64,000 nt of DNA, taken from the IMG/VR virus record IMGVR_UViG_3300025450_001231; one strand, 5' to 3'. This DNA is from a virus (taxonomy: Duplodnaviria > Caudoviricetes). The position numbers and the translations under genes were made by a program. This document shows, one piece after another, positions 42,143-42,429 of this stretch (positions are counted from its first letter, which is position 1; each line of letters begins with the position of its first letter). The notes beneath the pieces were generated by a model that saw only the letters and a list, made by a program, of their open reading frames with translations, was not told where the DNA came from and did no database searches.

Positions 42143-42429
42143 GCGAGTATGGCGAAATAGGTAGACGCAACAGACTTAAGAGTAAAATTTGAGTGCCTTA
42201 TTGGAAACGATAAGAGTAGAACCTGTCAAATTCGGTGAAAGCTGTAAAATGCTAATACCGAGCGAAGCCCAAAAGGGAACGTGTAGAGACTAGACGGCAG
42301 GAACCTAAAGCGTAAGCAATGGTTAAGGTATAGTCCAGACCACAAACTGTAAGGGTAGTGAAAACTATAGTGGTAAGAAAATCTGTCGGGAGAAATCCCA
42401 TCCCGGTTCGATTCCGGGTACTCGCACCA
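42143..42429 (+). tRNA. tRNA-Leu(TAA) interrupted by an intron (exons 42143-42177 and 42378-42429)
   Basis: Splicing rebuilds ACAGA-CTTAAAA-TCTGT; acceptor GCGAGTA/TACTCGC, A73, CCA. Confidence 0.92.
42178..42377 (+). ncRNA. group I self-splicing intron (IC3-like), 200 nt, no ORF
   Basis: IGS GAGT pairs with exon ACTT (U.G); P AAATTCGGTGAA, Q AATACCGAGC, R TAGAGACTAGACGG, S AAGGTATAGTCC; terminal G. Confidence 0.92.

What the first reader, a model, noticed from the sequence alone, without database searches (positions are those of the whole stretch)
42143..42429. Self-splicing group I intron in a phage tRNA-Leu(UAA) gene
Seen: a 200-nt insertion after U34 with IGS, P/Q/R/S elements, P2 GAAA loop and terminal G; removal restores a perfect anticodon arm. 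Established: this is the insertion site of the IC3 intron of cyanobacterial and plastid trnL(UAA). Its presence in a phage with apparently betaproteobacterial host-like genes points to horizontal intron traffic. Intron-containing tRNAs have been reported in some large phages, so it is unusual rather than unprecedented. Inference: the intron could hide the anticodon from nucleases or make tRNA supply splicing-dependent.
Basis: partly seen in the sequence, partly recalled or inferred. Interest (0 to 1): 0.7.

Follow-up and report, generated by a model that had tools for sequence, protein, structure and literature searches.

The report
Group I intron in phage tRNA-Leu
A leucine tRNA gene of an uncultured giant freshwater phage is split in its anticodon by a complete 200-base intron of the self-splicing type known from cyanobacteria and chloroplasts; the same thing is common but unannotated in phage DNA, although reviews say phage introns of this kind sit only in protein genes.

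Summary
Exons 42143-42177 and 42378-42429 join into a canonical class II tRNA-Leu(UAA). The 200 nt between them (42178-42377) score 58.9 bits against Rfam Intron_gpI (cut-off 50). They have the U·G pair at the 5' splice site, a terminal G, and helices P1-P9 including the P3/P7 pseudoknot. In 24 relatives, 98.7% of pair cells are paired and 23 pairs show compensatory changes.

The insertion site (CUU/AAAA) is that of the classical cyanobacterial and plastid trnL intron. The intron is 56-62% identical to cyanobacterial copies. It is up to 93% identical to copies in uncultured viral contigs. One capped IMG/VR scan gave 84 split tRNA-Leu(UAA) genes. Agrobacterium phage Atu_ph07 and the 735-kb phage LR756501 also carry one, unannotated.

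In relatives the split gene often abuts an HNH endonuclease gene, and in one contig the HNH gene lies inside the intron. In this window the intron has no ORF and no adjacent nuclease gene. Its nearest HNH gene (43270-43731) belongs to a different clade.

Splicing is inferred, not shown: no RNA data covered the junction. The host is undetermined. I found no paper reporting group I introns in phage tRNA genes. This scan has already reported the same element on other DNA. It is a new member of a known kind in a little-described setting.

The parts
42143..42177 (+). 5' exon of tRNA-Leu(UAA): acceptor 5' strand, D arm, anticodon stem 5' strand, C32 U33 U34
   Evidence: ARAGORN -i and in-silico splicing; U34 = 42177 is the U of the U·G pair in P1
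42178..42377 (+). Group I intron, 200 nt, no ORF, ends in the terminal G (42377)
   Evidence: Rfam RF00028 58.9 bits; covariation
42378..42429 (+). 3' exon: A35 A36 A37 A38, anticodon stem 3' strand, long variable arm, T arm, acceptor 3' strand, A73, encoded CCA
42174..42194 (+). P1: exon ACUU plus intron AA (42174-42179) paired with guide sequence UUGAGU (42189-42194). U42177·G42191 is the splice-site wobble. UUU 42188-42190 can also pair with 3' exon AAA (P10).
   Evidence: U·G in 24/24 relatives
42195..42217 (+). P2 hairpin with GAAA tetraloop (42204-42207)
   Evidence: 8 of 9 pairs show compensatory changes
42222..42227 (+). P3 5' strand; pairs with 42296-42301
   Evidence: 4 of 6 pairs compensatory, 100% of cells paired
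42232..42261 (+). P4 (42232-42237 / 42256-42261) and P5 (42240-42242 / 42251-42253)
   Evidence: P4 is invariant among the phage copies but covaries against cyanobacterial copies (UUCGGU/ACCGAG vs CUCAGG/CCUGAG).
42262..42282 (+). P6 (42262-42264 / 42280-42282) and P6a hairpin (42268-42270 / 42275-42277)
42286..42291 (+). P7 5' strand G(A)GACU with bulged A; pairs with AGUCC 42332-42336 (pseudoknot with P3; presumed guanosine-binding helix)
   Evidence: 99.2% of cells paired, nearly invariant
42302..42324 (+). P8, with CCUAAAG...AAUGG, which resembles the 11-nt GAAA-tetraloop receptor
   Evidence: compensatory changes in P8. The receptor likeness is read from the sequence and was not tested.
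42339..42374 (+). P9 (42339-43 / 42370-74), enclosing a small GUAA hairpin and a GAAA-capped hairpin (42355-59 / 42364-68)
   Evidence: compensatory changes in both helices
42775..42866 (+). Context: a second, uninterrupted tRNA-Leu(UAA) gene, less canonical (C·A mismatch in the anticodon stem, G·U pairs in the D stem)
   Evidence: (43.9 bits)
43270..43731 (+). Context: free-standing HNH endonuclease gene in the tRNA array. Related to nucleases that abut split tRNA-Leu genes in other phages, but from another clade; not shown to be a partner of this intron.

Best explanation
A functional tRNA-Leu(UAA) gene, packed inside a 24-gene phage tRNA array, is interrupted between U34 and A35 by a compact ORF-less group I intron of the tRNA-Leu 'Leu.3Ug' (IC3) family. 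After transcription and release from the polycistronic precursor, the intron should fold (P1-P9, P3/P7 pseudoknot). It should then bind free guanosine and cut after U42177 at the U·G pair. Finally it should use its terminal G42377 and the P10 pairing to join the exons, giving an ordinary 87-nt tRNA that reads UUA/UUG, which make up 59% of the Leu codons in this window's long ORFs. The anatomy, the conservation and the homology are shown. The splicing chemistry is inferred from the family. The intron is most likely a selfish or neutral passenger. It belongs to a large phage-borne lineage of split tRNA-Leu(UAA) genes. In other phages this lineage travels with HNH homing endonucleases, either next to the gene or inside the intron. 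Here the intron has no nuclease of its own.
For: Rfam Intron_gpI 58.9 bits, full-length match. ARAGORN -i: tRNA-Leu(taa) i(36,200); the spliced product is a perfect class II cloverleaf. Structure counted on 24 relatives: 98.7% of cells paired, against 27-40% with slid partners; 23 pairs with changes on both sides; 0/500 shuffles reach this; U·G at the splice site in 24/24. The same helices appear in cyanobacterial trnL introns. Nearly all of about 104 split Leu(UAA) genes examined read GACUU|...G|AAAAUC. Relatives: 84 of 123 IMG/VR pattern matches are split tRNA-Leu(UAA), plus Atu_ph07 and LR756501. Intron identity is up to 93% to viral contigs, about 75% to the few bacterial copies and 56-62% to cyanobacteria. 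HNH-family ORFs abut 37/99 split tRNAs but 11/564 unsplit tRNAs in the same loci. One contig has the HNH ORF inside loop L1 of the intron. Codon demand. Phage identity.
Against: There is no experimental or RNA-seq evidence of splicing: the RNA runs did not cover the gene. An uninterrupted tRNA-Leu(UAA) copy 350 nt downstream (42775-42866) means the split gene need not be essential. 'Neutral passenger' is a default reading, not a tested claim. The intron set was gathered with a pattern derived from phage sequences, which inflates both the apparent phage bias and the intron identities.
Confidence: 0.85

Rival explanations
1. DNA-level immunity, or collaborative homing. Phage tRNA arrays are full of free-standing HNH endonucleases. 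On this reading the intron is kept because it breaks the recognition site of a nuclease that cuts uninterrupted tRNA-Leu(UAA) genes. It would protect this phage in mixed infections and spread by repair of cut rivals. This is compatible with the best explanation and adds a selective benefit.
For: HNH-family ORFs abut 37/99 split tRNAs against 11/564 unsplit tRNAs in the same loci (odds ratio 30), in two stereotyped layouts from two separate HNH clades. An intron-internal HNH (L332) is sister to the convergent free-standing clade. Split and unsplit Leu(UAA) genes are intermixed by exon similarity: the window's exons are closest to an unsplit gene (88.5%), while its intron is 93% identical to introns in genes whose exons are only 77% alike. 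Collaborative homing has a published precedent (cyanophage psbA; Hausner 2014 review).
Against: In this window no HNH gene abuts the split tRNA. The nearest one (893 nt away) groups with nucleases that sit next to unsplit tRNA-Val genes. The window also keeps an uninterrupted Leu(UAA) gene. 58 of 73 close relatives of the window's HNH lie beside unsplit tRNAs, so the family is linked to tRNA genes in general. No cleavage site is known. The loci are related and were centred on split genes, so the statistic overstates independence.
Confidence: 0.25
2. RNA-level role. The intron would mask the anticodon loop from host anticodon nucleases, or make tRNA-Leu supply depend on GTP, Mg or folding conditions.
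For: Only circumstantial: the intron sits in the anticodon. The array lies near a kinase-like gene (45692-46168) and a phosphoesterase gene (46375-46959), which could belong to an RNA-repair set.
Against: Only the precursor is masked; the mature tRNA is exposed. No tRNA-Leu(UAA)-specific nuclease was linked to this phage. The intron-less second copy undermines strict control. Nothing in the comparison set bears on it.
Confidence: 0.07
3. Dead gene. The intron no longer splices, and the split gene is a decaying duplicate whose job is done by the uninterrupted copy.
For: A second tRNA-Leu(UAA) gene is present.
Against: Every core helix, the U·G pair, the terminal G and all tRNA stems are intact. 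The split copy is the more canonical tRNA of the two. Relatives keep the structure through compensatory changes.
Confidence: 0.05

Closest known systems
[quoted passage not shown]
   Same: Same host gene and same site (CUU/a...g/AAAA). It has the U·G and terminal G, the same P1-P9 helices, and GAAA loops on P2 and P9. It has no ORF. It aligns along its whole length.
   Different: Only 56-62% identical. Shorter (200 nt against 212-300 nt in the cyanobacteria sampled). It ends AAG rather than AUG. It is carried by a phage tRNA array rather than a chromosomal single gene, and it falls in a separate clade made mostly of viral contigs.
[quoted passage not shown]
   Same: Comparable size and a minimal architecture without P5abc. 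It sits in a tRNA anticodon loop. The tetraloop and receptor layout looks similar (my own knowledge; not aligned here).
   Different: A different tRNA and a different loop position. It is bacterial and chromosomal.
Phage group I introns in protein genes (T4 td/nrdB/sunY, Twort, SPO1, cyanophage psbA) and the collaborative homing pair psbA intron / F-CphI (Zeng et al. 2009, cited in PMC3984707)
   Same: Phage-borne self-splicing introns linked to homing endonucleases. In relatives of this window an ORF-less intron sits next to a free-standing nuclease gene, as in cyanophage psbA.
   Different: Those interrupt protein-coding genes. The 2014 review states that all phage introns then known were in protein genes. 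Here the host gene is a tRNA, and this window has no adjacent nuclease gene.
'Enigmatic' tRNA introns of Lak megaphages (Devoto et al. 2019, PMC6784885)
   Same: Introns in tRNA genes of very large phages.
   Different: Those are short and are not described in that paper as group I; their splicing route is unknown. This one is a full group I ribozyme.

Membership tests
Group I intron (Rfam RF00028) | Covariance-model score at or above the curated gathering score | tested here: met
   58.9 bits against 50, E 2e-12, model 1-253
Group I intron (Rfam RF00028) | P1 helix formed by the 5' exon end and an internal guide sequence, with a U·G wobble at the splice site | tested here: met
   ACUU|AA / UUGAGU; U42177·G42191; U·G in 24/24 relatives
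Group I intron (Rfam RF00028) | Terminal G before the 3' splice site | tested here: met
   G42377; nearly all of about 104 split Leu(UAA) genes examined end in G
Group I intron (Rfam RF00028) | Conserved core: P3-P8 and P4-P6 domains with the P3/P7 pseudoknot, supported by covariation | tested here: met
   54 pairs, 98.7% of cells paired, 23 pairs compensatory, slid controls 27-40%
Group I intron (Rfam RF00028) | Guanosine-dependent self-splicing | not testable with these tools
   No RNA reads covered the gene; needs in-vitro transcription with GTP and Mg
tRNA-Leu(UAA) intron, 'Leu.3Ug' / IC3 | Insertion between U34 and A35 of a UAA anticodon (CUU/AAAA loop) | tested here: met
   definition quoted from Williams 2020
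tRNA-Leu(UAA) intron, 'Leu.3Ug' / IC3 | Homology to the cyanobacterial and plastid introns | tested here: met
   Full-length alignment with 8 cyanobacterial copies and shared helices; 56-62% identity with the 14 copies sampled
tRNA-Leu(UAA) intron, 'Leu.3Ug' / IC3 | Formal IC3 subgroup criteria (peripheral elements and tertiary contacts as in GISSD) | not tested
   Only read from the sequence: no P5abc, GAAA loops on L2 and L9, receptor-like CCUAAAG/AAUGG in P8
Mobile group I intron with homing endonuclease | Endonuclease ORF inside the intron | tested here: not met
   200 nt, no ORF. Present in a relative, L332.
Collaborative-homing pair (ORF-less intron plus adjacent free-standing endonuclease) | Endonuclease gene directly beside the intron-bearing gene | tested here: not met
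   The neighbours are tRNA-Leu(UAG) and tRNA-Arg(UCU). The nearest HNH gene is 893 nt away and from another clade. The feature is met in 37/99 related split tRNAs.
Collaborative-homing pair (ORF-less intron plus adjacent free-standing endonuclease) | The endonuclease cuts the intronless allele at the intron insertion site | not testable with these tools
   Needs a cleavage assay
Class II tRNA-Leu | Cloverleaf with long variable arm, 7-bp acceptor stem and 7-nt anticodon loop after intron removal | tested here: met
   ARAGORN on the spliced sequence: 87 nt, Leu(taa)

The most novel reading that the evidence does not exclude
[quoted passage not shown] On this reading the intron moves between divergent tRNA-Leu genes with the help of HNH endonucleases that cut uninterrupted tRNA-Leu(UAA) DNA. 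These nucleases are found free-standing beside the gene or inside loop L1. ORF-less copies such as this one persist because they make the phage's own gene immune to those nucleases in mixed infections. That would give the intron a selective role and a transfer route into bacteria.
Probability: 0.25. Interest if true: 0.75.

Novelty: new member of a known kind. Interest (0 to 1): 0.5.

Why it matters
The tRNA-Leu(UAA) intron is the textbook case of an old bacterial intron inherited by chloroplasts. How it came to be scattered among bacteria has long been debated, because no endonuclease was known for it. A major review (2014) states that phage group I introns occur only in protein genes, even though phages carry many tRNA genes.

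This window, together with at least 84 further viral contigs and two named phages, shows that split tRNA-Leu(UAA) genes are common in phages. Default tools overlook them: ARAGORN without -i finds nothing, and Rfam at its gathering score misses the Atu_ph07 and LR756501 copies.

In related phages the split gene is tied to HNH endonuclease genes, which gives a testable route for intron spread. On the practical side, tRNA counts for large phages are underestimated, and a spurious 'hypothetical protein' is annotated over the 3' exon in Atu_ph07.

Tried and rejected
1. RNA evidence. One run search and one laying of reads. The lake metatranscriptome runs held only neighbouring conserved tRNA pieces, nothing over 42138-42409, and no joints. 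This says nothing either way about splicing.

2. Whole-genome search. No genome is held for this window.

3. Is the window's own HNH gene (43270-43731) the intron's partner? Rejected as unsupported. It is not adjacent. Its best 80 relatives mostly sit beside unsplit tRNAs, and only 4/80 loci hold an intron. In the tree it groups with nucleases next to tRNA-Val genes.

4. A recent transfer from cyanobacteria. Rejected: identity to the cyanobacterial clade is only 56-62%.

5. Intron more conserved than exons as proof of horizontal transfer (mean 80% against 69%). Not accepted as proof, because 33 intron positions were fixed by the search pattern and the catalytic core is constrained.

6. Host assignment. 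Not attempted beyond noting that the chromosomal Noviherbaspirillum copy is 74.5% identical. That is too distant to name a host.

7. Literature. Nine full-text searches found no report of a group I intron in a phage tRNA gene. Subscription journals are not covered, so this is not proof of absence.

8. Relative frequency of split and unsplit phage tRNA-Leu(UAA).

Full report
**What is there**

The window is part of an uncultured, T4-like giant phage from fresh water.
- It encodes a T4-type large terminase, 55% identical to those of Pseudomonas jumbo phages PA5oct and MIJ3 and 49% to that of Agrobacterium phage Atu_ph07.
- It also encodes a tail sheath, a gp15-like sheath stabiliser, gp32, UvsX and UvsY.
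- Freshwater and lake metagenomes hold the sequence.
- No whole genome is held for it.
- Between 38.3 and 43.9 kb lies an array of 23 tRNA genes called by ARAGORN.
- Between tRNA-Leu(UAG), which ends at 42134, and tRNA-Arg(UCU), which starts at 42437, there is a 302-nt gap in which default ARAGORN finds nothing.

**The observation**

The gap holds the two halves of a tRNA-Leu(UAA) gene.
- Exon 1 is 42143-42177 and exon 2 is 42378-42429, separated by exactly 200 nt.
- ARAGORN with introns allowed reports tRNA-Leu(taa) with i(36,200).
- The in-silico spliced sequence folds into a flawless 87-nt class II cloverleaf. It has a 7-bp acceptor stem, the anticodon arm ACAGA-CUUAAAA-UCUGU, a GAAA-capped variable arm, A73 and an encoded CCA.
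- Rfam Intron_gpI matches 42168-42359 over its whole model at 58.9 bits (gathering score 50; E 2e-12 for the window).
- The finding's coordinates and every listed feature are correct.

**Anatomy**

- P1 is formed by exon ACUU plus intron AA with the guide sequence UUGAGU. It places U34 (42177) opposite G42191.
- The UUU just 5' of that G can pair with the first three As of exon 2 (P10).
- The other elements are:
  - P2, capped by GAAA;
  - P3 (42222-27 / 42296-301);
  - P4, P5, P6 and P6a;
  - P7, G(A)GACU / AGUCC with a bulged A, which makes the pseudoknot with P3;
  - P8, with a CCUAAAG...AAUGG motif that resembles the 11-nt GAAA receptor;
  - P9, which encloses a GAAA-capped hairpin.
- The intron ends in G42377.
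- A single-sequence fold recovers the tRNA arms and most intron helices, with z = -3.48.

**Is the structure real?**

I aligned the window with 23 relatives: 20 viral contigs and 3 sequences from bacterial assemblies.
- RNAalifold found 48 pairs, 26 of them with compensatory changes.
- I wrote out a full P1-P9 structure, with P7 as a pseudoknot, and counted it. 98.7% of 1282 cells are standard pairs.
- When partners are slid by 1-3 columns, only 27-40% of cells pair.
- 23 pairs change on both sides, and 0 of 500 shuffles reach any of the measures.
- P2, P3, P6, P8 and P9 covary strongly.
- P4 and P7 are nearly invariant within this set. P4 does covary against cyanobacterial copies: UUCGGU/ACCGAG against CUCAGG/CCUGAG.
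- The U·G pair at the splice site is present in 24/24.

**Family**

- The insertion site is exactly that of the classical intron: 'CUU/a...g/AAAA', as Williams 2020 writes it for Nostoc.
- I sampled 121 genomes of the phylum Cyanobacteriota with RF00028, and 31 had a match. Fourteen clean tRNA-Leu(UAA) introns from them align with the window's intron helix for helix.
- Identity to these is only 56-62%, and in a tree they form a separate clade.
- The window's closest relatives are introns in viral contigs: 93% to L037, and 89-91% to L051, L015, L027 and L075.
- The few bacterial copies found with the same pattern are about 70-75% identical.
- One of them, in Noviherbaspirillum autotrophicum, lies on a 5.1-Mb contig next to tRNA-Cys and two tRNA-Gly genes, so it looks chromosomal.
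- Two others are near-twins of viral contigs and may be phage DNA binned into MAGs.

**How common is it in phages?**

Of 123 matches, 84 are split tRNA-Leu(UAA) genes. Others interrupt other tRNA genes (ARAGORN labels them Thr, Phe, Arg, Met and so on, and these labels are uncertain). Twenty-two have no split-tRNA call, and some of those lie in protein-coding sequence.
- Nearly all of the split Leu(UAA) genes read GACUU|...G|AAAAUC.
- In 185,579 bacterial and archaeal species genomes the same pattern hit 100 stretches. Only 5 were in tRNA-Leu(UAA). Most were in tRNA-Met(CAU) or tRNA-Leu(CAA) of Omnitrophota, Patescibacteria and Planctomycetes. The pattern came from phage sequences, so this contrast is biased.
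- Among 50,697 deposited phage records, only Atu_ph07 and the 735-kb metagenomic phage LR756501/LR756503 matched across exons and intron. In neither is the gene annotated: Atu_ph07 has a 'hypothetical protein' CDS over the 3' exon.
- Rfam at its gathering score and default ARAGORN both miss these two copies. This explains why such genes go unseen.
- Several carrier contigs share UvsX, UvsY and gp32 homologues (68-92% protein identity) with the window, so part of the distribution is lineage inheritance.
- The PA5oct group, the closest isolates by terminase, gave no match.

**Literature**

- Williams 2020 mapped 5292 tRNA group I introns, but in bacterial assemblies.
- Devoto 2019 reported tRNA introns in Lak megaphages as a first for phages; those are 'enigmatic', not group I (PMC6784885).
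- Nine full-text searches found no paper on group I introns in phage tRNA genes. The library lacks most subscription journals.
- This scan has reported the same element before on other DNA. I reached the same reading independently and tested it here.

**Endonucleases**

*Adjacency to split tRNA genes*
- The window's ORF 43270-43731 is an HNH endonuclease: PHROG 10822 at 8e-23, Pfam HNH at 22.1 bits, with the CxxC...H-N-H core intact.
- Its relatives turned up in 40 of the fetched loci (38 of them viral).
- 37 of the 41 ORFs directly abut a split tRNA gene, in two fixed layouts. In one the ORF lies upstream on the same strand and runs into the tRNA's 5' end. In the other it is convergent on the tRNA's 3' end.
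- Within the same loci, 37/99 split tRNAs have such a neighbour, against 11/564 unsplit tRNAs (odds ratio 30, p 2e-24). The loci are related to one another and were centred on split genes, so this overstates independence.
- None of the 65 bacterial split tRNAs has one.

*Reverse search and tree*
- The reverse search changes the picture for this window. The 80 best relatives of its HNH lie in phage tRNA arrays. 58 of 73 are within 80 nt of an unsplit tRNA, and only 4 of the 80 loci contain an intron.
- In a tree, the window's protein groups with nucleases next to tRNA-Val genes. The nucleases associated with split tRNA-Leu form two other clades.
- In contig L332 an HNH ORF of this family sits inside loop L1 of a tRNA-Leu(UAA) intron. 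It is sister to the convergent free-standing clade.
- L333 carries a different HNH ORF at the same place.
- So the phage intron lineage as a whole is tied to homing endonucleases, and all three stages are seen: intron-encoded, adjacent, and none.
- The window's copy is of the third kind.

**Exons and intron**

- The window's mature tRNA is most like an unsplit phage tRNA-Leu(UAA) (L371, 88.5%).
- The genes that carry its most similar introns have exons only 77-83% identical.
- By nearest neighbour, 19 of 56 split genes are closest to an unsplit gene.
- This fits repeated intron gain or loss, but it is not proof. The tRNA alignment is short, and the intron identities are inflated by the search pattern.

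**Function**

- UUA and UUG make up 59% of the Leu codons in the window's long ORFs, so a tRNA-Leu(UAA) is useful to the phage.
- The split copy is the more canonical of the two Leu(UAA) genes. The second copy (42775-42866) has a C·A mismatch in the anticodon stem and scores 43.9 bits.
- I found nothing that supports masking of the anticodon or regulated splicing.
- RNA data were uninformative.

**Verdict**

- This is a real, intact group I intron of the tRNA-Leu(UAA) family in a functional-looking phage tRNA gene.
- It is mechanistically ordinary, and self-splicing is inferred, not shown.
- Its interest lies in the setting. It is one member of a large, unannotated, phage-borne lineage that contradicts the reviewed picture and is linked in relatives to HNH homing endonucleases.

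Noticed in passing
window 43270-43731 (+); loci L254-L333: A family of small free-standing HNH endonucleases lives inside phage tRNA arrays. 58 of 73 close relatives end within 80 nt of an uninterrupted tRNA gene (often Val, Thr, Gly or Leu), and many ORFs run into the tRNA's first bases. This may be a tRNA-gene-targeting homing system comparable to T4 SegB.
   Followed up: partly
L332:501-1359 and L333:563-1391: Two viral contigs carry tRNA-Leu(UAA) genes whose group I intron is 776 or 743 nt long because an HNH endonuclease ORF sits in loop L1, between the 5' splice site and the guide sequence. I know of no endonuclease reported for this intron family.
   Followed up: partly
L002 (MF403008.1, about 112930-113244) and L001 (LR756501.1, about 190288-190526): Agrobacterium phage Atu_ph07 and the 735-kb phage LR756501 each hold an unannotated split tRNA-Leu(UAA). 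In Atu_ph07 a 'hypothetical protein' CDS (AUZ94936.1) overlaps the 3' exon. Rfam at its gathering score and default ARAGORN both miss these genes.
   Followed up: yes
window 42775-42866 (+): A second, uninterrupted tRNA-Leu(UAA), 92 nt, with a C·A mismatch in the anticodon stem and a weak D stem. Its anticodon region (GUCUUAAAAACUAU) differs from the spliced first gene (GACUUAAAAUCUGU). Whether that matters for nuclease recognition is unknown.
   Followed up: partly
IMG/VR loci L010, L019, L021, L035, L038, L078, L091, L096 and others: The same intron core also interrupts other phage tRNA genes (called Thr(UGU), Phe(GAA), Arg(UCU), Met(CAU) and Lys(UUU) by ARAGORN; the labels are uncertain) and, apparently, some protein-coding genes.
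   Followed up: no
Genome-contig loci L122-L221: In bacterial genomes the same core pattern sits mostly in tRNA-Met(CAU) and tRNA-Leu(CAA) genes of Omnitrophota, Patescibacteria/Saccharibacteria, Planctomycetes and Chloroflexota MAGs. Noviherbaspirillum autotrophicum has a chromosomal split tRNA-Leu(UAA) next to tRNA-Cys and tRNA-Gly.
   Followed up: partly
window 45692-46168 and 46375-46959 (+): An AAA_33 / polynucleotide-kinase-like ORF and a calcineurin-like phosphoesterase lie just downstream of the tRNA array. Homologues (52-74% identity) recur near the split tRNA-Leu in several related contigs. This may be an RNA end-healing (tRNA repair) pair.
   Followed up: no
window 39101-39316 and 39585-39854 (+): An RNA polymerase omega/Rpb6-like ORF and a parvulin-type PPIase ORF are embedded in the tRNA array.
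   Followed up: no
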